Virus record (IMG/VR): IMGVR_UViG_2718218136_000002
Span: 1-36,503 of that record
Reading direction: 5' to 3' (one strand)
DNA: 36,503 nt
DNA from: a virus
Lineage: Duplodnaviria; Heunggongvirae; Uroviricota; Caudoviricetes
Part shown: positions 1 through 35,806 of the stretch, one piece after another
Position numbering within the stretch: position 1 is the stretch's first letter
Layout of the letters: each line of letters begins with the position of its first letter
Translations under genes and position numbers: made by a program
The notes under the pieces: generated by a model
Database searches by the model: none
What the model saw: the letters and a program-made list of their open reading frames with translations, nothing else
Told to the model about the DNA's origin: nothing

Positions 1-690
1 GTGAATGAGTTCAAGGGGATATTATTTGATAAAAATAGAAGGTCTTCAGAGTTTCTACTTAATTTTTATGAATGTTGCTATGAGTTTTTACCAAGAGCGC
101 AGCCTCAGGATAAAATCGAAAGCTATAATTCAGCACTGCAAGCTTTCTCCATCTTTTGTTCATCTACGTTGATACATAATAATATAGGCTTTGATTTCAA
201 ATTATTTCCAGAAGTCAAACTGTGTGGGGAAAATCTTGAAACGGTATTCAAATATAAAAATGGCGATGATGTCCGGGAGATAGCCAAAATTAACATTGCT
301 CTCCAAAAAGAAGAGGATGGTTTATATAATTTAGGTGGATTGGATTTTAAGGGATGCTTCTTTTCTGGACAGAACTTCAGTAACTATGATATTCAATATG
401 TGAACTGGGGAACGTCATTGTTTGATCTTGATACTCCGTGTATTTTTAATGCGCCTGCTTACAACAAGAGTAATGAAAAATCATTAAAACCTGTGAGCGA
501 AAACGGTTTAAGTGGAGTCTTGACTGATCGTAATAATAAAATAAAACTCATCACGGGCGTGGCACCATTCGATGATATTTTATTTATGGATGATGACTTT
601 GATGATAGTTCCTCTGAGGATGATCCCGTTGAGAATAGTCCTGTTGTGACTAGTCCCGTTGTATCAAGTTCTAAAAGCAGTTTTCAATGA
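1..690 (+). CDS. Hypothetical protein, possibly 5-prime truncated by the window edge; AT-rich, with an acidic Ser/Asp-rich C-terminal tail
   Basis: Open frame of 229 codons from position 1 (GTG) to a stop at 688-690. Composition is visibly AT-rich compared with the prophage. No family recognised. Confidence 0.4.
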   Translation: MNEFKGILFDKNRRSSEFLLNFYECCYEFLPRAQPQDKIESYNSALQAFSIFCSSTLIHNNIGFDFKLFPEVKLCGENLETVFKYKNGDDVREIAKINIALQKEEDGLYNLGGLDFKGCFFSGQNFSNYDIQYVNWGTSLFDLDTPCIFNAPAYNKSNEKSLKPVSENGLSGVLTDRNNKIKLITGVAPFDDILFMDDDFDDSSSEDDPVENSPVVTSPVVSSSKSSFQ

Positions 691-776
691 TTAATAAATG
701 GCTATTTTTACAAAGAGATAATAACGTAGATTGAAACAATATGTATTATTGATTGATTAAACGGGATTATTTTTTA

Positions 777-870
777 CACTACAACCATTTTGCTGCCACT
801 ACCAAAGAAAAAGGGGCTACGCTTTCACGTAACCCCTTGATTTATTTGTTGAGCTGGCGGTGTCTGAATT
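777..870. repeat. Second, degenerate copy of the ssrA 3-prime flank: terminator hairpin plus decayed tmRNA 3-prime end (old att remnant)
   Basis: 795-848 matches 35392-35445 with one mismatch. The next ~15 bp (tgttgagctggcggtg) is a decayed version of tggtggagctggcggg. About 12-20 bp upstream (ccattttgc-gccactacc) is also shared with 35374-35391. Confidence 0.7.
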
Positions 871-984
871 GGTGCTGTAATTGGTTGAAATATTTATTCT
901 AATGTCTGGTTCAACTTTCCTTAGCTGCCTGAAAGTTTTTTTGATCTTACCCATCAATAATAGGGTTACGGTACACCACGCCTG

Positions 985-1225
985 ACTGATGAACTGCGTG
1001 CTCAGGGTTACCTCTTCAACGTAAAACCGTGGCAGGAGGTCCGGACTGAAAAAACTGCTCAGGACATTATCGGCGGTGGACGCACGGGTAGTCTGTAAAC
1101 CGAACCGACTGGGGCGCAGTATGTGGCATCTTGTCGTGCTGTTGGAGGAGCTGTGCAAACGTGGTATTAACTTTCGTGCTCTGGCCCAATCTATATTTGC
1201 CCAACAATGGGGGGACGAATGCTGT
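985..1225 (+). pseudogene. Serine DNA invertase (Pin/Gin/Hin family) fragment, frame-disrupted
   Basis: Translated fragment KPNRLGRSMWHLVVLLEELCKRGINFRALAQSI resembles LDRLGRSMRHLVTLIEELRQRGVNFRSLTDSI of the intact invertase at 26978-27544. A DNA stretch aaaaaactgctcaggacattatcggcggtgga is nearly identical to 27111-27142. The frame is broken and both N- and C-terminal parts are missing. Confidence 0.6.
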
Positions 1226-1593
1226 AAAAGTAAAAGAATCTGCGATCTCAAAGTTATTGTGTTATTTTTATGTGAGCAGAAGATATTCATCAGAAACGAT
1301 TATGTAAATCATTTTATTTTGCCGACGGCCTGATTGTCGAAAGAAAAGAATACCCCCGTATTCCCTGAATAGATTGACTTTTTTATCCAACCATACTTCA
1401 GCGCACTGCGTTTAAAAAATGCTTCTTTCTTATGTGGAATATCATCATTTCATCATGATGTCTTTGATGAGCGGTGAACACAATACACTTGCGCTGTCTC
1501 TTCAGGATGAATCCCCTGGTCTGGTGCCTGTGGGCTGATGTTGCAGCAGAGCTAAGGTCGCTTAAACGCTACTCAGTATTCACTTTTCAGAGG

Positions 1594-4500
1594 ATGAAAT
1601 TTATGAACAGGACCAGTCCCCATTATTGTCGCCGCTCAGTACTTTCCTTATTGATATCTGCCTTGATATATGCCCCGCCTGGGATGACGGCCTTCACTCC
1701 TGATGTTATTGGTGTGGTAAACGATGAGACTGTAGATGGCAGCCAAAGAGTAGATGAACGAGGTACAACAAATAACACTCATATTATCAACCATGGCCAG
1801 CAGAATGTTCATGGCGGGGTATCTAATGGAAGTCTTATTGAATCGGGTGGATATCAAGATGTAGGAAGTCATAACAATTTTGTGGGGCAGGCTAATAATA
1901 CAACCATTAACGGAGGAAGACAGACAATTCATGACGGGGGCATTTCCACCGGTACGATAATCGACAGTGGCAATCAGGACGTTTATACAGGTGGTATCAG
2001 CAATGGAACGACAATTAAGGGTGGTAATTCACACATAAGTGGGGGGACTGCGAATGGAACCATCATTGATGGTGGAGGGCAGAAAGTAACAACTCAGGGG
2101 CATGTTGATGGTACAACGATAAATAAGTCCGGTTATCAGGACATCACGCAAGGAAGTATTGCAACGAACACAATCATAAATGGTGGACGACAGTATGTTG
2201 AACAGAGCACAGTAGGAACAACCACCATTAAAAATGGCGGTGAGCAAAGAGTATATGAAAGCCATGCGCTGGACACGACGATTGAAGGTGGAACTCAGTC
2301 TCTGAATAATAAGTCAACGGCAAAAATACTCAGATCTATTCTGGTGGTACGCAAATTGTTGATTACACCAGCTCCTCGGATGTTATTGAAGTTTATTCCG
2401 GTGGCGTGCTTGATGTTAGTGGTGGTACGGCAACAAATGTTACCCAGCACGATGGTGCAATTTTAAAAACAAACACTAACGGTACGACGGTGAGCGGTAC
2501 GAATAGTGAAGGTGCATTCTCCATCCACAATCACGTGGCAGACAATGTGTTGCTGGAAAACGGTGGTCATTTAGACATAAACGCATATGGTTCGGCAAAC
2601 AAGACGATTATTAAAGATAAAGGAACAATGTCAGTTTTAACGAATGCTAAAGCTGATGCGACCCGAATAGATAACGGCGGGGTAATGGATGTTACCGGAA
2701 ACGCGACCAATACCATAATCAATGGTGGTACACAGAATATTAATAATCATGGTATTGCCACGGGTACCAATATCAACGGCGGAACGCAAAATATCAAGAG
2801 CGGCGGGAAAGCTGACACGACAATTATATCCTCCGGGAGCCGGCAGGTTGTTGAGAAAGATGGTACGGCAACTGGCAGCAATATTAGCGCCGGAGGCTCG
2901 CTGATTGTCTATACCGGTGGTATTGCACATGGGGTTAACCAGGAGACGGGCAGTGCTTTAGTTGCCAACACGGGCGCAGGGACTGATATTGAAGGATACA
3001 ACAAGCTCTCTCACTTCACTATTACCGGAGGGGAGGCTAATTATGTTGTGCTGGAAAATACCGGCGAACTGACGGTAGTGGCTAAAACCTCGGCGAAAAA
3101 TACTACCGTTGATGCTGGCGGTAAGCTGATTGTCCAGAAGGAGGCTAAAACAGATACCACCAGACTTAATAATGGTGGCGTTCTGGAGGTTCAGGACGGT
3201 GGTGAGGCTAAGCATGTTGAGCAACAATCCGGCGGCGCATTAATTGCTTCCACAACTTCCGGAACCCTTATCGAAGGAACCAACAGTTATGGTGATGCTT
3301 TCTACATCAGGAATTCAGAAGCTAAAAATGTAGTGCTGGAAAACGCTGGCTCATTAACAGTCGTCACTGGTTCCCGGGCAGTTGATACGATTATTAATGC
3401 CAACGGCAAAATGGATGTTTATGGAAAAGATGTTGGCACTGTACTCAATAGTGCTGGCACCCAAACAATATATGCCAGTGCCACTTCTGATAAAGCAAAT
3501 ATCAAAGGTGGCAAGCAAACGGTATATGGATTAGCCACTGAGGCAAATATCGAAAGTGGTGAACAAATTGTTGATGGTGGGTCAACAGAGAAAACACACA
3601 TCAATGGTGGCACGCAAACCGTTCAGAATTATGGTAAGGCAATCAATACCGATATCGTCTCTGGCCTACAACAAATTATGGCAAACGGGACAGCGGAAGG
3701 TTCCATTATTAATGGGTGTTCACAGGTAGTTAATGAGGGCGGTCTGGCTGAAAACTCGGTGCTTAATGACGGCGGCACACTCGATGTGCGGGAGAAAGGC
3801 AGCGCAACGGGGATACAGCAGAGTAGCCAGGACGCTTTGGTTGCAACCACCAGGGCGACGCGGGTCACAGGAACACGCGCGGATGGCGTCGCGTTCAGCA
3901 TCGAGCAGGGTGCGGCGAACAATATCCTGCTGGCAAATGGCGGCGTGTTAACCATGGAGTCAGACACCTCTTCTGACAAAACACAGGTCAATACGGGCGG
4001 ACGGGAGATCGTCAAAACAAAAGCCACTGCGACAGGCACGACGCTCACCGGCGGCGAACAAATCGTCGAGGGGGTGGCGAATGAGACAACGATTAACGAC
4101 GGCGGAATACAAACAGTTTCAGCTAACGGAGAGGCAATAAAAACAAAGATCAATGAAGGCGGTACGCTGACAGTTAACGATAATGGCAAAGCGACAGATA
4201 TCGTCCAGAACAGCGGTGCCGCTCTCCAGACGAGCACGGCTAACGGTATTGAAATCAGCGGTACTCACCAGTACGGCACTTTTTCCATTTCCGGCAATTT
4301 AGCGACCAATATGTTGCTGGAAAATGGCGGTAATTTATTGGTATTAGCAGGTACCGAAGCTCGCGACTCCACGGTTGGCAGCGGTGGAGCCGCCAACGGC
4401 AGTTATCGCAGCAACGGGCTGGGCGGTCACATTGAAACCGGGATGCGATTTACCGATGGTAACTGGAACCTGACGCCGTATGCATCGTTAACGGGGGTTC

Positions 4501-4863
4501 ACCGCTGATAACCCTGAATATCATTTATCCAATGGCATGGAATCGAAATCAGTCGATACCCGCAGTTTATATCGTGAACTGGGTGCAACGCTGAGTTACA
4601 ACATGCGTCTGGGGAACGGTATGGAAGTTGAGCCGTGGCTGAAGGCGGCTGTGCGCAAAGAATTTGTCGATGATAACCGGGTGAAAGTGAATAGTGACGG
4701 TAATTTCGTCAATGATTTGTCGGGCAGACGTGGAATATACCAGGCAGGTATTAAAGCCTCATTCAGCAGTACGTTAAGCGGGCATCTTGGGGTGGGGTAT
4801 AGCCATGGTGCCGGTGTGGAATCCCCGTGGAACGGGGTAGCTGGTGTGAACTGGTCGTTCTGA
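1594..4863 (+). pseudogene. Autotransporter adhesin (AIDA/YpjA-like passenger repeats plus C-terminal beta-domain), disrupted by frame changes
   Basis: Signal-peptide-like start (MKFMNRTSPHYCRRSVLSLLISALIYAPPGMTA). Long arrays of about 19-aa repeats (..G.ATNT.INGG.Q.V..). Three consecutive ORFs in different frames (1474-2466, 2406-4508, 4537-4863). The last ends in the typical autotransporter terminal W-S-F, but the beta-domain is too short. Confidence 0.6.
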
Positions 4864-5022: not shown

Positions 5023-5068
5023 TTGGTGGAGCTGGCGGGAGTTGAACCCGCGTCCGAAATTCCTACAT
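5023..5068. repeat. Distal att core: direct repeat of the tmRNA 3-prime end (prophage boundary on the integrase side)
   Basis: ttggtggagctggcgggagttgaacccgcgtccgaaattcctacat is identical to 35443-35488, which lies inside the tmRNA 3-prime end. Confidence 0.85.
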
Positions 5069-5185
5069 ACCATTTTTACACTAACGAAATCATATTTTTT
5101 CATTTTAAATCATGATGTTATTGTTAATCTGTGTTTGCTTGTTTTACTTGTTTTTAGTGCTCTGCCGCCAAAGTGCCGCCATTTA

Positions 5186-6211
5186 TTAGCGATGCCAGTT
5201 GAGGTTATGAAGTGGATTTTTGGTAACGGCATCTTCCAGATGATCCGGTGCAAAATGGGCATAAATCATGGTCATTTTAATATCAGCGTGCCCTAAAATA
5301 TCCCTCAATACTAAAATGTTTCCGCCGTTCATCATAAAGTGGCTGGCGAAAGTGTGGCGCAGAACGTGGGTACATTGACCTTCAGGTAGTTCAATTCCAG
5401 CTCGTTTTACCGCACGCTCAAAAGCCTTTCGGCATGGTGTGAATAACTTTCCCCTGTTTTTGGGTAATTCTTCATACAGTTCCTGAGAAATAGGAACAGT
5501 TCGGTTTTTCTTTCCTTTTGTTTTGGTATAGGTAATTCGATACTTTGATATCTGGTTACCTTGCAGGTTTTCGGCTTCGCTCCATCTTGCCCCGGTTGCC
5601 AGACAAATCTTGGCAATCATTAGCAGACTGGGACTTTGAGATTCAGCACAAGCGTCAAGCAGGCGTTTGATTTCATCAGCAGCAAGGAACGCCAGTTCAC
5701 CCTCTGCAATTTTGAAAGTTGGCAGACCGGCGAGAGGGTTGGGTGCAGACCAATGTCCCAGCTTTTTCAGTGTGCCAAAAACTGAGGATAGGTTACGTTG
5801 TTCAAGGTTCACCGTTCTGGGCTTAACTGGTGACATGAGCACACCATCTTCGTTTTTGACCTCACCTTTTAATCTGGCTTCCCGGTATTTTGTGAAATCA
5901 CCTGCTGTCAATTCAGAAGCGATGGGATCGCCAAGCCCATTACAAATGATTTTTAACTTAGCCATTAATCGCTTAGGGTCAGCGAGTGTCTGACCGTACA
6001 GGGAATACCATTGCTCAATCACTTCTGACAGTTGTCGCCGATCTTCCTTTTCTCCCAGCCAAGGTTTCTTGTTTACCTCGTCCATGGTGAAATTCTCAAA
6101 CGCAATGGCTTCGCCTTTCGTCGCAAATTGTTTGCGTACGCGTTTGCCATCTCGCCCGTTTGGGTAGCATTCACATAACCACTTTCCGTTCGGCTGTTTT
6201 CTGATGGTCAT
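5186..6211 (-). CDS. int: Phage integrase, tyrosine recombinase (P2/186 Int type)
   Basis: 341 aa with the C-terminal catalytic region ...HVLRHTFASHFMMNGGNILVLRDILGHADIKMTMIYAHF (R..H..Y motif context). Lies next to the att repeat. Confidence 0.93.
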   Translation of the reverse strand: MTIRKQPNGKWLCECYPNGRDGKRVRKQFATKGEAIAFENFTMDEVNKKPWLGEKEDRRQLSEVIEQWYSLYGQTLADPKRLMAKLKIICNGLGDPIASELTAGDFTKYREARLKGEVKNEDGVLMSPVKPRTVNLEQRNLSSVFGTLKKLGHWSAPNPLAGLPTFKIAEGELAFLAADEIKRLLDACAESQSPSLLMIAKICLATGARWSEAENLQGNQISKYRITYTKTKGKKNRTVPISQELYEELPKNRGKLFTPCRKAFERAVKRAGIELPEGQCTHVLRHTFASHFMMNGGNILVLRDILGHADIKMTMIYAHFAPDHLEDAVTKNPLHNLNWHR

Positions 6212-6212
6212 A

Positions 6213-6845
6213 TCAAAGGCTCTTAATGATTTTCAGTGCGCGGCCTATTACCTTAATGTCATCCAGTTCGCACTCAAACGATGAATCATCCTGATGCACT
6301 ACTAATCTGTTTCCCGGGAGTCGTGTCAATTTTACAATGCTTTTTATCCCGTCGATGTCCACTAACCACGTACCATTTACTGGTGGTGTTTGGTTGCGAT
6401 CTATTAAATAAGAATCACCAGAAGTAGTCACCAGCAGCAGGTTGCTTGAGTCTGAGGGGAGTATGCTGCTATCAATGATTGCTTTTCCAGCATCGACCAA
6501 TAAACCACCGTTGAGAGTTGCCTTTTCAATTTCAGGAGATACAAGCTCAGAAAGAGGTTTAACCTTGCTGGGGTTCACGGAATTGATATTTTTTTTAGGG
6601 TCAATGTTTGAACCTGGCTCGCCCTGTCCGGTGGTTAGCCATAGTAAAGAAACTCCTGTTTCCAAGGCGCACTGAATCACCCATTCTGCGGGAAAGCTAT
6701 CTCTTAAGTATCTGTTTGCCATAGTGCTTTTTGATGCACCTAAGTGATCGCAAAGTTGCTGTCTGGACTTGAAATCATAGGCTGCCATTAGTCTATGGAT
6801 AGCCTCTCTTCCCCCTGTATTCTCGCCAGCTTTTACCTGTATCAT
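6213..6845 (-). CDS. cI: 186-type CI immunity repressor
   Basis: 210 aa. N-terminal ...NRYLRDSFPAEWVIQCALETGVSLLWLTTGQGEP matches the 186 CI-type HTH region as I recall it. Sits directly upstream of int on the same strand. Confidence 0.8.
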   Translation of the reverse strand: MIQVKAGENTGGREAIHRLMAAYDFKSRQQLCDHLGASKSTMANRYLRDSFPAEWVIQCALETGVSLLWLTTGQGEPGSNIDPKKNINSVNPSKVKPLSELVSPEIEKATLNGGLLVDAGKAIIDSSILPSDSSNLLLVTTSGDSYLIDRNQTPPVNGTWLVDIDGIKSIVKLTRLPGNRLVVHQDDSSFECELDDIKVIGRALKIIKSL

Positions 6846-8569: not shown

Positions 8570-8796
8570 TGGCTGATGCAATGGATCTCGTACAGCAGCG
8601 CGTTGAAGAAGAACGCCAACGCCATATCCGTGCTGCCCGTGCCAAAACGCCGGGCGTGTCCCGCGTGCTTTGCGTTGAGTGTGAAGCGCCAATTCCGCCA
8701 GCACGCCGCCGTGCCATTCCTGGAGTGCAGCTTTGCATTACCTGCCAGGAAATCGCAGAGCTGAAAGGCAAACATTACAACGGAGGTGCTGTATGA
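8569..8796 (+). CDS. TraR/DksA-family C4 zinc-finger protein
   Basis: 75 aa with CVEC...17 aa...CITC (C-x2-C-x17-C-x2-C). Confidence 0.65.
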   Translation: MADAMDLVQQRVEEERQRHIRAARAKTPGVSRVLCVECEAPIPPARRRAIPGVQLCITCQEIAELKGKHYNGGAV

Positions 8797-9650
8797 GCAC
8801 CATCCTGAAATGGGCGGGTAATAAAACCGCCATTATGTCCGAACTGAAAAAATACCTTCCTGCTGGCCCGCGACTGGTTGAACCTTTCGCGGGTTCTTGT
8901 GCTGTGATGATGGCGACGGATTACCCCAGCTATCTGGTTGCGGATATTAATCCTGATTTAATCAACCTCTATAAAAAGATTGCCGCTGATTGCGAAGCGT
9001 TTATATCTCGTGCCAAAGTTTTATTTGAGGAAGCAAACAGTGAGCTGGCTTATTACAACATAAGACAGGAGTTTAATTACTCAACTGAAATTACTGATTT
9101 CATGAAGGCGATATATTTCCTGTATCTCAATCGTCACGGTTACCGTGGTTTATGTCGCTATAACAAGAGCGGGTATTTCAACATTCCCTACGGTAATTAT
9201 AAAAATCCGTATTTCCCTGAAAAAGAAATTCGCGCATTTGCAGAGAAAGCCCAGCGGGCAACGTTTATCTGCGCGAGCTTTGATGAAACGCTGGCGATGC
9301 TGCAGGTGGGGGATGTGGTGTATTGCGATCCGCCGTATGACGGTACGTTTTCCGGCTATCACACTGATGGTTTCACTGAAGATGACCAGTATCACCTGGC
9401 ATCCATTCTTGAACATCGGTCATCAGAAGGACATCCGGTCATTGTTTCTAACAATGACACATCCCTGATTCGTTCGCTGTATCGCAATTTTACTCACCAC
9501 TATATCAAGGCAAAACGCAGCATCGGCGTGTCAGCTGGCGAGGGTAAATCTGCAACAGAAATCATTGCTGTTTCCGGGCCGAGCTGCTGGTTGGGATTTG
9601 ATCCTTCGCGTGGCGTGGATAGTTCTGCCGTGTACGGAGTGTGTGTATGA
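8793..9650 (+). CDS. dam: DNA adenine N6-methyltransferase (Dam family, orphan)
   Basis: Motif [10 protein letters not shown] and motif IV DPPY (VYCDPPYDG). No adjacent restriction endonuclease gene. Confidence 0.9.
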
Positions 9651-12214: not shown

Positions 12215-12403
12215 ATGCAGGACTATTTTTTGGAGTCTTTGAAGCTCCAGCGCATTGATTTTTTTCTTAAGCTTGTAGCGGCTAGTGAGTGTAGTGATGA
12301 AGAGAAGGGGCTGGCCCTGCAGTGGGTTTCTGAACTGACAGATGAACTCATGGCAAAAATCAGAAGCCACGAATACAACCGCTCAATGGATGTCATCAGC
12401 TGA
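12215..12403 (+). CDS. Small hypothetical protein, candidate antirepressor-module partner (Tum-like N-terminal part?)
   Basis: 62 codons with AGGAGG RBS. Immediately downstream of the LexA box and 10 nt upstream of the DinI-like gene. Confidence 0.45.
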   Translation: MQDYFLESLKLQRIDFFLKLVAASECSDEEKGLALQWVSELTDELMAKIRSHEYNRSMDVIS

Positions 12404-12413
12404 GGGGTCTTTT

Positions 12414-12647
12414 ATGCGCATTGAAATAATGATCGATAAAGAGCAGAAGATTAGCCAGTCTACCCTGGACGCCCTTGAATCCGAGCTTTACCGCAATCTG
12501 CGCCCCCTGTATCCCAAAACGGTAATTCGTATCCGCAAAGGTAGCTCTAACGGTGTGGAACTGACTGGGCTGCAACAGGACGAAGAAAGAAAACAAGTGA
12601 TGAAAATTATGCAGAAGGTGTGGGAAGACGACAGCTGGCTGCATTAA
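12414..12647 (+). CDS. DinI-family protein (SOS-associated; Tum C-terminal domain-like)
   Basis: MRIEIMIDKEQKISQSTLDALESELYRNLRPLYPKTVIRIRKGSSNGVELTGLQQDEERKQVMKIMQKVWEDDSWL resembles E. coli DinI (MRIEVTIAK...ISEILQETWESADDW). Confidence 0.75.
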   Translation: MRIEIMIDKEQKISQSTLDALESELYRNLRPLYPKTVIRIRKGSSNGVELTGLQQDEERKQVMKIMQKVWEDDSWLH

Positions 12648-32945: not shown

Positions 32946-33427
32946 TGATGGTGCTGGGATTGTACGTGTTTATGCTGCGCACCGTTCCGTATCAGGAACT
33001 GCAGTATCAACGCAGCTGGCGACATGCGGCAAACAGTCGGGTAAACCGACGTCCGTCCACGCAGTTTCTGGGACCGGAAAACGACATGCTGACGCTTTCC
33101 GGTGTTCTTATGCCGGAAATAACAGGCGGCAGGCTGTCGTTGCTGGCACTGGAGCAGATGGCAGAACAGGGGAAAGCATGGCCCCTGATTGAAGGCAGCG
33201 GCACGATTTACGGCATGTATGTGATTGAGGGACTGAATCAGACTAAAACGGAGTTTTTCCGCGACGGTATGCCGCGCCGGATTGAGTTCACCCTGTCGCT
33301 CAAACGGGTGGATGAATCCCTGTCCGATATGTTCGGTGATCTCAGTGCGCAACTGAATAATCTGCAGGAAACGGCAACGTCTGCCTTAAGCGATATCAGT
33401 AAAACGGTGGGAGGGCTGCTGTCGTGA
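32942..33427 (+). CDS. U: Tail protein U (P2 gpU-like)
   Basis: 161 aa. Start overlaps the T stop. Confidence 0.88.
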   Translation: MMMVLGLYVFMLRTVPYQELQYQRSWRHAANSRVNRRPSTQFLGPENDMLTLSGVLMPEITGGRLSLLALEQMAEQGKAWPLIEGSGTIYGMYVIEGLNQTKTEFFRDGMPRRIEFTLSLKRVDESLSDMFGDLSAQLNNLQETATSALSDISKTVGGLLS

Positions 33428-34524
33428 ATTTCAGCTCTGAACTGCTTAACAAAGGCAACAAAACTCCCGCATTCAGCATCAGTATTGAGGGCAGGGATAT
33501 CACCACTGTGCTGGATAACCGCCTGATGAGTTTGACGCTGACGGATAACCGGGGCTTTGAAGCGGACCAGCTTGATCTGGAGCTGGATGACGCTGACGGA
33601 AAAATCGTGCTGCCGCGCCGTGGTGCGGTCATTACGCTGGCGCTGGGCTGGAAGGGGCAGCCGCTTTTCCCTAAAGGGGCATTCACAGTGGACGAGATTG
33701 AACACACTGGCGCACCGGACCGCCTGACTATCCGGGCGCGAAGTGCTGATTTTCGGGAAACGCTGAATACCCGCCGTGAAAAATCGTGGCATAAGACCAC
33801 CGTCGGGGAAGTGGTGAAGGAAATAGCCGCGCGGCACAAGCTGAAGATGGCACTGGGTAAAGACCTGTCGGATAAGCCCGTGGAGCATATAGACCAGACT
33901 AATGAGAGTGACGGCAGTTTTCTGATGCGGCTGGCGCGACAGTACGGTGCCATCGCGTCGGTGAAAAATGGCAATCTGTTATTCATCCGGCAGGGGCAGG
34001 GCAAAAGCGCCACTGGTAAACCTCTGCCAGTGATCACTATCACACGCAAGGACGGCGACAGTCACCGATTTACCCTGGCAGATCGCGGAGCCTACACGGG
34101 CGTAATTGCCAGCTGGTTGCATACCCGCGAACCTGCGAAGAAAGAAAGCACCACGGTGAAGCGTAAGCGCAGAACTAAGAAGCAGAAGAAAGAGCCAGAA
34201 GCGAAGCAGGGCGATTACCTGGTGGGTACGGATGAAAACGTGCTGGTACTTAATCGCACTTATGCCAACCGGAGCAACGCCGAACGAGCGGCGAAAATGC
34301 AGTGGGAACGCCTGCAACGCGGCGTTGCGTCATTTTCGCTACAACTGGCAGAAGGGCGGGCAGATCTCTACACGGAAATGCCTGTGAAGGTCAGTGGTTT
34401 TAAACAGCCGATAGATGATGCGGAATGGACCATTACGACTCTGACACATACCGTCAGCCCGGATAACGGTTTTACAACCAGTATTGAACTCGAAGTGAAG
34501 ATTGATGATCTTGAAATGGAATAA
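33424..34524 (+). CDS. D: Tail protein D (P2 gpD-like)
   Basis: 366 aa, GTG start overlapping the U stop. ..TPAFSISIEGRDITTVLDNRLMSLTLTDNRGFEADQLDLELDDADGKI.. resembles P2 gpD. Confidence 0.9.
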   Translation: MNFSSELLNKGNKTPAFSISIEGRDITTVLDNRLMSLTLTDNRGFEADQLDLELDDADGKIVLPRRGAVITLALGWKGQPLFPKGAFTVDEIEHTGAPDRLTIRARSADFRETLNTRREKSWHKTTVGEVVKEIAARHKLKMALGKDLSDKPVEHIDQTNESDGSFLMRLARQYGAIASVKNGNLLFIRQGQGKSATGKPLPVITITRKDGDSHRFTLADRGAYTGVIASWLHTREPAKKESTTVKRKRRTKKQKKEPEAKQGDYLVGTDENVLVLNRTYANRSNAERAAKMQWERLQRGVASFSLQLAEGRADLYTEMPVKVSGFKQPIDDAEWTITTLTHTVSPDNGFTTSIELEVKIDDLEME

Positions 34525-34592: not shown

Positions 34593-34811
34593 ATGATGAA
34601 TTGTCCAAAGTGTGGTCATGCGGCACACACAAGGAGCAGTTTTCAAGTAACTGAAAGCACCAAAGAGCGTTACTGCCAGTGCCAAAATATTAACTGCGGG
34701 AGCACTTTTGTTACCCATGAAACAGTGGTCCGGTTTATTGTGACACCCGCACTGATTGCTACTGCTCCTCCACATCCATTGCCAGGTGGTCAGGGGCATA
34801 TGAATTTTTGA
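34593..34811 (+). CDS. ogr: Late gene transcriptional activator, Ogr/Delta zinc-finger family
   Basis: MMNCPKCGHAAHTRSS...TKERYCQCQNINCGSTFVTHETV..PHPLPGGQ resembles P2 Ogr (CPLCQHAAHART..KERYHQCQNVNCSATF..PHPLPSGQ). Confidence 0.88.
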   Translation: MMNCPKCGHAAHTRSSFQVTESTKERYCQCQNINCGSTFVTHETVVRFIVTPALIATAPPHPLPGGQGHMNF

Positions 34812-34818
34812 GAAAGAG

Positions 34819-34839
34819 AACCTGCTACGGCAGGTTTTT
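34819..34839 (+). terminator. Terminator hairpin after ogr, overlapping the convergent stop of the WYL-BRCT gene
   Basis: AACCTGC tacg GCAGGTT followed by TTTATT. Confidence 0.5.
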
Positions 34840-35320
34840 ATTCATCTGGGATCTCACCCGTTTCAAGAAAATGTATAAAGCCAGGCTCATCTATGATGAT
34901 TGTGCCTTTCATCCTGGCTGCCGATACTTTTGATGGGCCTGCATTGTAACCGCAACAGAGCATCTGAAGGCTTTGGGTTACAGAGGTTCTTACCGTTAAT
35001 CCTTGTTCATTCGCCTTATCAACCAATCTTTCTTTATCTGCTTTCTTAAATCCGGTGAAACACACATCGAATGTATTTTTTTTCGGACCAGACTGCTTAG
35101 TGAGATGTGAGTAGTTTTCGGGGAGGAATGATGTGCATTCCTGAATGGCTTGTTCTGGTGAATCGTACTGTTTAAGAATGCGGTCTTTTCGGAAGGTTTT
35201 TATTCGATCGGTGTTCTTACAAATGCCCTGTATATGATTTTCGCTATAACTGATGCTCTGTATAGAGTGAACACCGATACGACCATTTGCATTGATGTAA
35301 ACAAAGTGAAGTTCTTCCAT
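34838..35320 (-). CDS. Cargo gene between ogr and the ssrA junction: small two-domain protein with a WYL-like N-terminal domain and a C-terminal BRCT-like domain; function unknown
   Basis: 160 aa. AGAGG RBS 7 nt before the ATG. N-terminal KTFRKDRI resembles the WYL-domain RtFRldRI motif. C-terminal DVCFTGF..(20 aa)..TVRTSVTQ..GYNAGPSKVSAARMKGTIIIDEPGFIHFL resembles the LigA-type BRCT fold signature. The gene looks AT-richer than the late operon. Confidence 0.6.
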   Translation of the reverse strand: MEELHFVYINANGRIGVHSIQSISYSENHIQGICKNTDRIKTFRKDRILKQYDSPEQAIQECTSFLPENYSHLTKQSGPKKNTFDVCFTGFKKADKERLVDKANEQGLTVRTSVTQSLQMLCCGYNAGPSKVSAARMKGTIIIDEPGFIHFLETGEIPDE

Positions 35321-35346
35321 GTCAAACCTCTTTGCATGATTTCAAG

Positions 35347-35385
35347 ATGGCGACAGGCAAGATGGACGCAAAAGTCTGTCGCCAT
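35347..35385. repeat. Inverted repeat (10-bp arms, 19-bp spacer) upstream of the WYL-BRCT gene
   Basis: ATGGCGACAG ...19 nt... CTGTCGCCAT, followed by TTT on the plus strand. Lies 27 bp upstream of the WYL-BRCT start codon. Confidence 0.4.
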
Positions 35386-35401
35386 TTTGCCGCCACTACC
35401 T

Positions 35402-35433
35402 AAGAAAAAGGGGCTACGCTTTCACGTAACCCC
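35402..35433 (-). terminator. ssrA rho-independent terminator
   Basis: Hairpin GGGGTTACG tgaaag CGTAGCCCC followed by TTTTTCTT on the minus strand, immediately 3-prime of the tmRNA. Confidence 0.7.
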
Positions 35434-35442
35434 TTGATTTAT

Positions 35443-35488
35443 TTGGTGGAGCTGGCGGGAGTTGAACCCGCGTCCGAAATTCCTACAT
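35443..35488. repeat. Proximal att core (within the tmRNA 3-prime end), direct repeat of 5023-5068
   Basis: Identical 46-bp sequence. Identity breaks exactly at both ends. Confidence 0.85.
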
Positions 35489-35806
35489 CCTCGGTACTAC
35501 ATGCTTAGTCAGTCTTTACATTCGCTTGCCAGCTGCGGACGGACACGCCACTAACAAACTAGCCTGATTAAGTTTTAACGCTTCAACCCCAGGCAGGGCT
35601 TCCACGCGATCTCTTTTGGGTTTGACCTCTCTTGATCCCCGTCCTAAGAGCGGAGGCTAGGGAGAGAGGGCTCTAAGCAGGTTATTAAGCTGCTAAAGCG
35701 TAGTTTTCGTCGTTTGCGACTATTTTTTGCGGCTTTTTACGAGGCCAACCGCCCCTCGGCATGCACCTTGGGTTTCGCAAATCCCGTCGAATCCAGAATC
35801 AGCCCC
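35444..35806 (-). ncRNA. ssrA: tmRNA (transfer-messenger RNA, SsrA)
   Basis: Reverse complement starts GGGGCTGATTCTGGATTCGACGGG and ends ...CCCGCCAGCTCCACCA. Contains the tag reading frame GCAAACGACGAAAACTACGCTTTAGCAGCTTAA (ANDENYALAA). Length 363 nt. Confidence 0.95.

What the first reader, a model, noticed from the sequence alone, without database searches (positions are those of the whole stretch)
34838..35385. Unassigned WYL-like/BRCT two-domain cargo gene wedged between ogr and the ssrA junction
A 160-aa minus-strand ORF sits where P2-type genomes normally go straight from ogr to att. Its N-terminal half carries a WYL-like signature (..GRIGVHSIQSISYSENHIQGICKNTDRIKTFRKDRI..) and its C-terminal half a BRCT-like signature (..DVCFTGF..TVRTSVTQ..GYNAGPSKVSAARMKGTIIIDEPGFIHFL). 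It has no HTH and no partner effector gene. WYL domains are ligand or nucleic-acid sensors that regulate several phage-defence operons, and BRCT domains bind DNA ends or phosphoproteins. A compact fusion of the two as a stand-alone prophage moron is not a family I can name. It is transcribed with ssrA and against the late operon, is flanked by a 10-bp-arm palindrome (35347-35385) and looks AT-richer than its neighbours. I read it as a lysogenic-conversion or defence/anti-defence candidate. The domain calls are by eye.
Basis: partly seen in the sequence, partly recalled or inferred. Interest (0 to 1): 0.78.

Follow-up and report, generated by a model that had tools for sequence, protein, structure and literature searches.

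The report
Prophage WYL–BRCT gene beside attR
A small gene at the end of a P2-like prophage encodes a real two-domain (WYL plus BRCT) protein of unknown function that belongs to the phage's repressor–integrase (lysogeny) module and most likely binds DNA ends or single-stranded DNA to exclude foreign DNA.

Summary

It is not an orphan. It is PHROG 2561 (mislabelled "DNA ligase"), RefSeq calls it "BRCT domain-containing protein", and the WYL+BRCT fusion was listed in 2014. No function is known.

New context found here:
- The prophage spans about 5069-35442 and sits in ssrA.
- In phage genomes the order is cI → int → attP → this gene.
- In many other P2-like prophages the gene follows the repressor directly and precedes int.
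- About 30% of the top family representatives carry N-terminal membrane anchors.
- Neighbouring genes are often defence cargo.
- The "palindrome" is what chance predicts, and one arm is a conserved putative Int arm-type site of attP.

Best reading (confidence about 0.4): an effector-less binder of ssDNA and 5'-phosphate DNA ends, made in lysogens, that acts as a superinfection-exclusion or defence factor. Rival readings are a DNA-damage sensor for the lysis-lysogeny switch, an anti-defence or end-protection protein, and an adaptor for neighbouring cargo. It is an uncharacterised variant of known kinds, of moderate interest.

The parts
34838..35320 (-). WYL-BRCT protein gene (160 aa plus stop codon)
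   Evidence: ORF list. Homologues at E down to 1e-101. phrog_2561 at 3.6e-77 over the full length. AF2 model with pLDDT 92.
35159..35320 (-). WYL / Sm-like five-strand barrel, residues 1-54. It carries the signature K41-T-F-R-K-D-R-I48 and an H29-I-Q strand that corresponds to the W-Y-L motif.
35072..35158 (-). Linker, residues 55-83: two short helices and then a lower-confidence segment
   Evidence: pLDDT falls to 71 for residues 71-80. pTM is 0.53, so the relative orientation of the two domains is not fixed by the model.
34841..35071 (-). BRCT domain, residues 84-160, of the LigA/RFC1 type. The phosphate pocket T89-G90 ... K131 is invariant, and K92, K93, K96 and R111 are conserved basic residues.
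35327..35331 (-). Shine-Dalgarno-like AGAGG, six bases upstream of the ATG
   Evidence: Read directly from the sequence.
35347..35385 (.).
   Evidence: It is the only such repeat in the window, and 1.1 are expected by chance. The left arm is not conserved outside the E. coli lineage.
35377..35395 (.). Pair of 8-mers, TGTCGCCA and TGCCGCCA, 11 bp apart. They are putative Int arm-type sites of the P' arm of attP. The first one overlaps the right arm of the palindrome.
   Evidence: The same pair, in the same orientation, lies at 5163 and 5174 beside attL. The block GTGGCGGCAAAATGGCG is invariant in 8 phages or prophages whose flanking sequence has diverged. Calling them Int sites is an inference by analogy with P2-type attP.
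35408..35435 (-). Intrinsic terminator of ssrA, supplied by the phage side of attR
   Evidence: Terminator scan: 12-bp stem followed by a T run. It lies left of the 46-bp core, so it is phage DNA.
35443..35488 (.). attR core, a 46-bp exact repeat of attL 5023-5068, equal to the 3' end of ssrA
   Evidence: Longest shared substring search.
5023..5068 (.). attL core. The prophage therefore spans about 5069-35442.
   Evidence: int is at 5186-6211 (-) and cI at 6213-6845 (-).
35444..35806 (-). ssrA (tmRNA), directly upstream of the gene on the same strand
   Evidence: ARAGORN. Rfam RF00023, 295.8 bits.
34819..34836 (.). Hairpin shared by the convergent ogr and WYL-BRCT genes, a likely bidirectional terminator
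   Evidence: Terminator scan and the sequence itself.
34593..34811 (+). ogr (late-gene activator), convergent with the WYL-BRCT gene
   Evidence: ORF translation MMNCPKCG.... RefSeq annotation of identical DNA reads 'ogr/Delta-like zinc finger family protein'.

Best explanation
The gene encodes a small protein with no enzymatic effector domain. It is a conserved accessory of the lysogeny (repressor-integrase-attP) module of P2-like phages.

Proposed mechanism:
- The N-terminal WYL barrel binds single-stranded nucleic acid.
- The C-terminal LigA/RFC1-type BRCT domain binds a 5'-phosphorylated DNA end or nick.
- Together they recognise ss/ds junctions, gapped DNA or cohesive ends.
- The protein is made in lysogens. 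In many relatives it is translated right behind the repressor. Here it sits across attP from int and just downstream of ssrA.
- It acts by occupying or sequestering such DNA structures on incoming or replicating foreign DNA. In about a third of the best-scoring family representatives this happens at the inner face of the membrane. The outcome is superinfection exclusion or defence.

Shown: both folds, the conserved motifs, the gene order, the membrane-anchored relatives and the defence-rich neighbourhood.

Inferred: the ligands, expression in this lysogen, and the exclusion phenotype.
For: Folds and motifs:
- WYL fold: best matches are ssDNA-sensing WYL proteins.
- BRCT fold.
- Closest sequence relatives of the BRCT half are the LigA and RFC1 BRCT domains.
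- T89-G90 and K131 are invariant in 52 sequences. They correspond to the Ser/Thr-Gly plus Lys phosphate pocket (PMC10386641).
- The isolated RFC1 BRCT prefers 5'-phosphate ends with a 3' ssDNA overhang, with Kd about 10 nM (PMC9293009).
- WYL domains of CapW and DriD bind ssDNA (PMC11662680).

Gene order:
- Cartapus virion genome: repressor → int → RES-domain cargo → attP → this gene.
- Yersinia MLG42: cI → int → gene.
- Xenorhabdus: cI → gene → int.
- Serratia: HTH → Flk_N → gene → int.
- Mannheimia PHL101: the gene starts 3 bp after the cI stop, and its annotated RBS lies inside cI.
- Vibrio PV94.
- At least 13 of 30 same-strand upstream neighbours in a genome survey are phage repressors.

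Membrane anchors: 45 of the top 150 cluster representatives have hydrophobic TM-like segments, mostly N-terminal. One is a P2-like prophage in which an S24 repressor is followed by a 3-TM WYL-BRCT protein and then gpD.

Neighbours: at least 10 of 50 genes within two positions match PADLOC defence or candidate-defence models.

Precedent: genes between repressor and integrase in lysogeny modules encode superinfection-exclusion proteins, for example the membrane-associated Sie2009 (PMC7693887). Lambda rexA is described as a DNA-binding exclusion protein; that rexAB lies in the cI operon is from my own knowledge.
Against: - No phenotype, binding or expression data exist for any member of the family. 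Three literature searches found none.
- The window protein has no membrane anchor.
- Its overall pI is about 7 and the BRCT half is acidic, pI 5.3.
- The two arginines that flank the WYL strand and contact ssDNA in CapW are absent; the equivalent residues are N28 and G32.
- The only PADLOC match is to the BRCT part of candidate PDC-S48.
- In this prophage the gene is cut off from cI-int by integration. It lies behind a strong terminator with no convincing promoter, so expression in the lysogen is uncertain.
- The defence-neighbour count has no baseline.
Confidence: 0.4

Rival explanations
1. DNA-damage sensor for the lysis-lysogeny switch. The WYL domain senses ssDNA produced by damage or replication stress. 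The BRCT domain relays this by binding a partner or DNA, and so modulates prophage induction, commitment or integration. The analogies are lambda RexA biasing the switch and DriD/PafBC/CapW sensing ssDNA.
For: - The gene is tightly coupled to the immunity repressor gene across many P2-like phages.
- The best structural matches of the WYL domain are ssDNA-sensing regulators (PMC11662680).
- RexA is described as a DNA-binding protein that biases the lambda switch (abstract of 10.1101/2023.08.31.555690); its co-transcription with cI is from my own knowledge.
Against: - There is no HTH or other output domain.
- The upstream repressors are of unrelated types (186-type CI in 7 cases, HTH plus S24 peptidase in 5), so a conserved direct contact with the repressor is unlikely.
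- Membrane-anchored variants and occurrences outside prophage immunity regions do not fit a switch component.
- In this window the gene is physically separated from cI by 28 kb in the prophage state.
Confidence: 0.2
2. Anti-defence or self-protection factor. The protein caps or masks the phage's own DNA ends or ssDNA intermediates. This would protect them from RecBCD or other nucleases, or hide the ssDNA signal that derepresses WYL-controlled host defences such as CapW/BrxR-regulated CBASS and BREX. It would work as a competing decoy WYL domain.
For: - It is small, has no effector domain, and consists only of nucleic-acid-binding modules.
- In the circular phage genome it lies downstream of cI-int, so it could be made early after infection.
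- A 162-aa structural match exists in Vibrio phage SSP002, which is not P2-like.
Against: - Known anti-defence genes are usually early lytic genes, not genes translated behind the lysogenic repressor (my own knowledge).
- Membrane tethering of many relatives is hard to reconcile with protecting replicating phage DNA.
- The neighbours are defence genes, not anti-defence genes.
Confidence: 0.15
3. Sensor or adaptor for neighbouring cargo. The WYL-BRCT protein would be the sensing subunit that activates or regulates whatever variable defence gene follows it in the cI-int slot. The copy in this window would then be an orphaned sensor.
For: - In several loci the gene is the first gene after cI and is followed by variable cargo, such as a KAP NTPase (PifA/QatA-like) or PDC-S20, before int.
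- WYL regulators typically head defence islands (PMC9122601, listed).
- An uncharacterised domain is fused to it or encoded next to it in some relatives.
Against: - There is no recurrent partner family.
- Many copies, including all ~170 in E. coli, stand alone yet are conserved at 95% identity or more.
- PHL101, PV94 and the window have no effector-like neighbour.
Confidence: 0.1
4. Accessory factor for site-specific recombination. The protein would bind DNA at or near attP and help Int-mediated integration or excision at ssrA.
For: - The gene abuts attP. The putative Int arm-type repeats lie 57-75 bp upstream of its ATG.
- It is always close to int in phage genomes.
Against: - It has no sequence-specific DNA-binding domain.
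- Across phages it tracks the repressor gene rather than int or attP, with variable genes between it and int.
- It also occurs in loci with no nearby integrase.
- The P2/186 systems already have Cox/Apl and IHF for this role (my own knowledge).
Confidence: 0.05

Closest known systems
wHTH-WYL-WCX regulators (CapW, BrxR, PafBC, DriD)
   Different: There is no winged HTH and no WCX domain; a BRCT domain takes their place. The arginines flanking the WYL strand that contact ssDNA in CapW are missing. It is therefore not a transcription factor of this family.
BRCT domains of NAD-dependent DNA ligase (LigA) and of RFC subunit 1
   Same: These are the closest sequence relatives of residues 84-160. 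The fold is the same, and so is the T-G ... G-x-S-K phosphate-pocket pattern.
   Different: There are no ligase or clamp-loader catalytic domains. The public labels 'DNA ligase' (PHROG, RefSeq phage records) and 'putative exonuclease' (Cartapus) rest on the BRCT match alone.
Superinfection-exclusion genes of lysogeny modules (lactococcal Sie2009, S. thermophilus Ltp, K139 Glo) and lambda rexAB
   Same: The position matches: between or next to the repressor and integrase genes and co-oriented with the repressor (PMC7693887). Many relatives have an N-terminal membrane anchor, as Sie2009 does. RexA is a DNA-binding exclusion protein. Glo has a role in phage exclusion in the P2-like phage K139 (PMC8537503).
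   Different: There is no sequence or fold relationship. The window protein is soluble. No exclusion phenotype has been shown.
PADLOC candidate PDC-S48
   Same: It shares a C-terminal BRCT domain (E=1.8e-7 over profile positions 335-406 of 411).
   Different: Only the BRCT part aligns. The 330-residue N-terminal part of PDC-S48 is absent here, and the WYL domain is not matched.

Membership tests
WYL domain (Pfam PF13280) | Sm-like / SH3-like five-strand beta-barrel fold | tested here: met
WYL domain (Pfam PF13280) | Profile match at the Pfam gathering score | tested here: inconclusive
   The window protein gives no hit even at E<=10. 4 of 52 homologues hit at E<=0.01. Family members L047 (27.5 bits), L049 (34.9), P0195, P0200 and P0184 exceed the 21.8-bit cut-off. 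Membership therefore rests on transitive homology.
WYL domain (Pfam PF13280) | Signature strand (W-Y-L) followed by the R-x-F-R-x-D-R-[IV] motif | tested here: met
   H29-I30-Q31, with an aromatic residue or His in 96% of sequences, followed by K41-T42-F43-R44-K45-D46-R47-I48. T42 is invariant; F43 and R44 are at least 90% conserved. The segment aligns to PafBC 'YFEAYCHSKAGVRNFRLDRV'.
WYL domain (Pfam PF13280) | Binding of ssDNA or ssRNA in the basic pocket (CapW S144, R164, R168, R184) | not testable with these tools
   The arginines flanking the WYL strand are absent (N28 and G32). K41, R44, K45 and R47 are conserved. The ligand needs a biochemical test.
BRCT domain (Pfam PF00533) | beta-alpha-beta-beta-alpha-beta-alpha fold | tested here: met
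BRCT domain (Pfam PF00533) | Profile match at the Pfam gathering score | tested here: inconclusive
   The window protein scores 19.6 bits against a 21.3-bit cut-off, E=1.1e-3. 37 of 52 homologues hit, and many relatives score well above the cut-off. A profile against PDB sequences finds LigA and RFC1 BRCT at about 3e-5.
BRCT domain (Pfam PF00533) | Phosphate-binding pocket: Ser/Thr-Gly after beta1 and Lys at the start of alpha2 | tested here: met
   T89, G90 and K131 are invariant in 52 sequences. The pocket is defined in PMC10386641. Actual binding was not tested.
wHTH-WYL-WCX transcription regulators (BrxR/CapW/PafBC/DriD) | N-terminal winged HTH and C-terminal WCX domain | tested here: not met
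   The protein begins with the WYL barrel at residue 3 and ends with the BRCT domain. There is no HTH hit in Pfam or NCBIfam.
NAD-dependent DNA ligase (the label used by PHROGs and RefSeq phage records) | Adenylation domain, OB fold, Zn finger and HhH domains | tested here: not met
   At 160 aa, the matches to LigA models cover only the C-terminal positions of the models, about 550-690. Scores are 11-20 bits against cut-offs of 369-1051.
DEDDh exonuclease (the label used for phage Cartapus) | DEDDh exonuclease domain | tested here: not met
   The match to NF004719 covers only profile positions 229-307 of 331, the BRCT tail, with 26 bits against a cut-off of 389.
PADLOC candidate defence gene PDC-S48 | Full-length match to the ~411-position model | tested here: not met
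   Only profile positions 335-406 align, to residues 83-153.
Lysogeny-module superinfection-exclusion genes (functional class) | Location in, and co-orientation with, the repressor-integrase module | tested here: met
   In the window it is met only in the circular map (int → attP → gene).
Lysogeny-module superinfection-exclusion genes (functional class) | Membrane association | tested here: not met
   The window protein has no hydrophobic segment. 45 of the 150 top family representatives do have one.
Lysogeny-module superinfection-exclusion genes (functional class) | Confers resistance to superinfecting phage | not testable with these tools
   This needs plaque and DNA-entry assays.

The most novel reading that the evidence does not exclude
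WYL-BRCT proteins are a widespread, so far unrecognised class of single-protein anti-phage or anti-plasmid factors with no enzymatic effector. They are carried in prophage immunity operons. They recognise a generic feature of entering or replicating foreign DNA (ssDNA next to a 5'-phosphate end, for example cohesive ends, nicks or gaps). They neutralise it by sequestration alone, often at the membrane, for example by blocking cos-end ligation or circularisation in competition with LigA.
Probability: 0.25. Interest if true: 0.75.

Novelty: new variant of a known kind. Interest (0 to 1): 0.55.

Why it matters
If the main reading is right, a 160-aa protein built from only two nucleic-acid-recognition modules would be a new and very compact way for prophages to exclude competitors.

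It would also be the first functional role for a WYL domain outside transcription factors, helicases and Cas accessory proteins.

It would correct a widespread mis-annotation ("DNA ligase" or "exonuclease") in phage genomes.

The family is common: about 3% of complete E. coli genomes, at least 214 clusters at 50% identity, and several bacterial phyla (most loci are Pseudomonadota). It is easy to test.

The arrangement across attP is a further point of interest. Integration uncouples the gene from cI-int and places it behind ssrA, which could give different expression in the circular and the integrated state.

Tried and rejected
1. A direct Pfam call of WYL on the window protein gave no hit. 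I resolved this through homologues and structure.
2. An N-terminal profile against PDB sequences gave only a non-significant PafBC match, E=1.1.
3. I rejected the palindrome as an operator. It occurs at chance frequency, it is not conserved outside E. coli, and the protein has no HTH.
4. A search for a sigma-70 promoter between the ssrA terminator and the ATG found none by scan or by eye.
5. I looked for a recurrent partner gene. There is none. The neighbours are repressors upstream and heterogeneous cargo downstream.
6. Pfam annotation of the extra domain that is fused or adjacent in some relatives gave no hit.
7. The literature yielded no functional study. The P2 hotspot papers do not describe the ogr-att side as a hotspot or mention this gene.
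8. I rejected the ligase and exonuclease readings, because only the BRCT tail matches.
9. The BFVD fold search added nothing beyond BRCT and ligase matches.
10. Kobayashi 2010 (PMC2843171), on the RFC1 residues that bind the 5' phosphate, is not held. I used PMC9293009 and PMC10386641 instead.
Full report
**1. What is there**

The window holds a 186/P2-like prophage integrated in ssrA.
- A 46-bp exact repeat (5023-5068 and 35443-35488) marks attL and attR, so the prophage spans about 5069-35442.
- At the left end lie int (5186-6211, -), cI (6213-6845, -), and apl- and cII-like genes.
- At the right end lie gpD (33424-34524, +) and ogr (34593-34811, +).
- tmRNA occupies 35444-35806 (-).
- Between ogr and attR lies the ORF in question, 34838-35320 (-), 160 aa, with an AGAGG ribosome-binding site six bases upstream.
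- The gene is 41% GC, against 53% for the prophage.

**2. The domain calls are correct**

BRCT domain:
- Pfam gives a marginal hit for this protein, E=1.1e-3 and 19.6 bits against a 21.3-bit cut-off.
- 37 of 52 diverse homologues hit BRCT.
- A family profile finds the BRCT domains of T. filiformis LigA and of RFC1 in the PDB at 3e-5 to 1e-4.

WYL domain:
- This protein has no Pfam WYL hit. Four homologues in the alignment do (best E 1.5e-5).
- More distant family members pass the gathering score for both WYL and BRCT.
- The motif K41-T-F-R-K-D-R-I48 corresponds to the R-x-F-R-L-D-R-[IV] signature of WYL domains.

**3. Conserved residues point to nucleic-acid recognition**

- Nine columns are invariant across 52 sequences. 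They include T89, G90 and K131.
- These three residues occupy the positions of the BRCT phosphate pocket: Ser/Thr-Gly after beta1 and Lys at the start of alpha2 (PMC10386641).
- The local pattern FTG…G-x-S-K is the one seen in LigA and RFC1.
- The isolated RFC1 BRCT binds DNA with Kd about 10 nM. It prefers a 5'-phosphate end, especially one with a 3' single-stranded overhang (PMC9293009).
- WYL domains of CapW and DriD bind ssDNA (PMC11662680). PafBC and PIF1 are reported to do so as well (my own knowledge).
- Conserved basic residues are K41, R44, K45 and R47 in the WYL half, and K92, K93, K96, R111 and K131 in the BRCT half.

Caveats:
- The two arginines flanking the WYL strand that contact ssDNA in CapW are not present here.
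- The BRCT half is acidic overall.
- The model's pTM of 0.53 says the domains are flexibly linked.

**4. It is a known but uncharacterised family**

- The protein matches phrog_2561 over its full length (3.6e-77). That PHROG is annotated "DNA ligase".
- RefSeq calls identical E. coli genes "BRCT domain-containing protein" or "hypothetical protein".
- Phage records call it "DNA ligase", "putative exonuclease" or hypothetical.
- The ligase and exonuclease labels rest only on the BRCT tail.
- Makarova et al. 2014 listed BRCT among the domains fused to WYL (PMC4012209).
- An exhaustive profile search finds 214 clusters (50% identity) at E<=1e-30 and 894 at E<=1e-10.
- Most genomic loci are in Pseudomonadota. 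A few are in Desulfuromonadales, Myxococcales, Verrucomicrobiota and a Synechococcus MAG.
- Three literature searches found no functional study.

**5. Genomic context: a lysogeny-module gene**

Arrangements seen in phages and prophages:
- Phage Cartapus (virion genome): repressor → integrase → RES-domain cargo → (attP) → WYL-BRCT, all on one strand, with ogr and gpD convergent.
- Yersinia phage MLG42: cI → int → gene.
- Xenorhabdus P2-like prophage: cI → gene → int.
- Serratia: HTH → Flk_N → gene → int.
- Mannheimia PHL101: the gene starts 3 bp after the cI stop, with its annotated RBS inside cI.
- Vibrio PV94: the gene starts 26 bp after the repressor gene.

Survey of 49 genome loci:
- Six repeat the window's smpB-ssrA-gene-ogr-gpD layout, in Erwinia, Klebsiella, Plesiomonas, Tatumella and Citrobacter.
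- At least 13 of 30 same-strand upstream neighbours are phage repressors: 7 Phage_CI_repr and 5 HTH plus S24 peptidase. The gaps are typically under 30 bp.
- Between the gene and int there are often zero to two variable genes.
- Of 50 neighbours within two positions, at least 10 match PADLOC defence or candidate-defence models (PDC-S20, PifA/QatA-type KAP NTPases, PDC-S39, AbiTii, type IV and type II restriction enzymes, PD-T4-2_A). No partner family recurs.

**6. In E. coli the gene is a fixed part of one phage lineage**

- 176 of 5426 complete genomes carry it, all at 95% identity or more.
- 169 carry the whole gpD-ogr-gene block.
- Every hit that extends past the ssrA-terminator homology into the P' arm also carries the gene (172 genomes).
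- The matching int gene is far more divergent, mostly about 80% identical.
- Three other E. coli P2-like prophages, at tRNA-Ile and at ybjL, run straight from ogr to the host junction.
Within this lineage, however, the slot is not a variable hotspot.
- Recent surveys of P2 hotspots list gpA-portal, int-att, int-primase and tail-gene hotspots, and not the ogr-att side (10.64898/2026.02.27.708500; PMC9122126).

**7. The palindrome**

- 35347-35385 is a perfect inverted repeat with 10-bp arms.
- It is the only one in the window, and shuffled sequence gives 1.1 on average.
- Its right arm is one of two 8-mers (TGTCGCCA at 35377 and TGCCGCCA at 35388) spaced 11 bp apart.
- The same pair, in the same orientation, lies next to attL at 5163 and 5174.
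- The block GTGGCGGCAAAATGGCG is invariant in eight phages whose surrounding sequence has diverged. The P arm of MLG42 carries the same repeats.
- This is the pattern expected of integrase arm-type sites of attP, by analogy with P2. It is an inference.
- The left arm is confined to the E. coli lineage and is imperfect in phage 500465-1.
- So the palindrome is best read as attP architecture plus coincidence (or a third Int site), not as an operator for a protein that has no HTH.

**8. Expression**

- The phage-borne ssrA terminator (35408-35435) lies between ssrA and the gene.
- No credible sigma-70 promoter is found in the 87 bp between that terminator and the ATG.
- In the lysogen, expression would therefore depend on terminator read-through from the very strongly transcribed ssrA, or on a weak promoter.
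- In the circular genome the same terminator lies between int and the gene.
- In relatives with the cI → gene order, co-expression with the repressor is straightforward.
- Expression in this lysogen is thus inferred, not shown.

**9. Membrane-anchored and fused relatives**

- Of the 150 best cluster representatives, 65 are 200 aa or longer. 45 of these carry hydrophobic TM-like segments, mostly one to three N-terminal helices, followed by a low-complexity linker and the WYL-BRCT module.
- One such protein sits in a Pasteurellaceae P2-like prophage: an S24 repressor, a 9-bp gap, a 3-TM WYL-BRCT protein, then gpD.
- Other relatives carry an uncharacterised domain with the motif GYAxGW…ALDIKLTP…WTQG. 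It is fused at either end or encoded next door, and has no Pfam match.

**10. Interpretation**

The evidence has four strands:
- The two domains' characterised relatives bind ssDNA and 5'-phosphorylated DNA ends.
- The gene is placed in the immunity/integration operon.
- Many relatives are tethered to the membrane.
- The neighbours are rich in defence genes.

Taken together, these best fit a lysogen-expressed factor with no enzymatic effector. It would recognise ss/ds junctions, nicks, gaps or cohesive ends on foreign DNA and block their processing, giving superinfection exclusion or defence.

Precedents are Sie2009-type genes between repressor and integrase (PMC7693887), Glo of the P2-like phage K139 (PMC8537503) and the DNA-binding RexA of lambda.

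I put this at about 0.4. The rivals are:
- an ssDNA-sensing modulator of the lysis-lysogeny switch (0.2);
- an anti-defence or end-protection protein (0.15);
- a sensor or adaptor for adjacent cargo (0.1);
- a recombination accessory factor (0.05).

None can be excluded without experiments.

**11. Verdict**

- Novelty: an uncharacterised variant of known kinds (WYL sensors and lysogeny-module morons).
- Interest: moderate, 0.55. The family is common, mis-annotated, cheap to test, and has a concrete structural hypothesis.

Noticed in passing
window 5163-5181 and 35377-35395: Two pairs of 8-mers (TGCCGCCA / TGTCGCCA), 11 bp apart and in the same orientation, lie about 95-110 bp from attL inside the prophage and about 50-65 bp from attR. 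They are conserved in eight related phages. They look like integrase arm-type binding sites of an ssrA-specific P2-like attP.
   Followed up: partly
window 35382-35443: The phage-borne copy of the ssrA terminator region matches 3166 of 5426 E. coli genomes at about 89-97% identity. The phage therefore replaces the host's ssrA 3' flank with a close copy, and homology between phage and host extends beyond the 46-bp exact core.
   Followed up: partly
window 1-4863: Beyond attL lie a DUF5508 protein (1-690) and an AIDA-repeat autotransporter adhesin split into three ORFs (1474-2466, 2406-4508, 4537-4863). It looks frameshifted or pseudogenised, probably a remnant of another island at ssrA.
   Followed up: no
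window 8733-9650 and 12342-12647: The prophage carries a D12-class (Dam-like) adenine methyltransferase just upstream of gpA and a DinI-like protein between gpA and the portal gene. The classical P2 gpA-portal hotspot here holds only small ORFs and no large defence system.
   Followed up: no
L064 1508-2713 (phage Cartapus): Cartapus has a 402-aa 'RES protein, NAD+ binding domain' gene between int and attP. This is cargo in the int-att slot that is empty in the window (118 bp between int and the attL core).
   Followed up: no
P0121, P0124, P0157, P0185; L025 5502-6098; L058 3587-4036: An uncharacterised domain of about 150-230 aa (motif GYAxGW…ALDIKLTP…WTQG…F.EGD) is fused to WYL-BRCT at either end or encoded immediately next to it. 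It has no Pfam match. It may be a partner module.
   Followed up: partly
window 5186-6211 compared with 34838-35320, across E. coli genomes: The WYL-BRCT gene is at least 95% identical in all 178 E. coli records that match. The int gene of the same prophage type is mostly about 80% identical. This suggests mosaic exchange of the integration module around a conserved right end.
   Followed up: partly
L047 4536-5492; L049 4719-5519: Pasteurellaceae P2-like prophages encode membrane-anchored (1-3 TM) versions of the protein directly after the repressor gene. The annotated Mannheimia PHL101 homologue (172 aa) lacks the anchor.
   Followed up: partly
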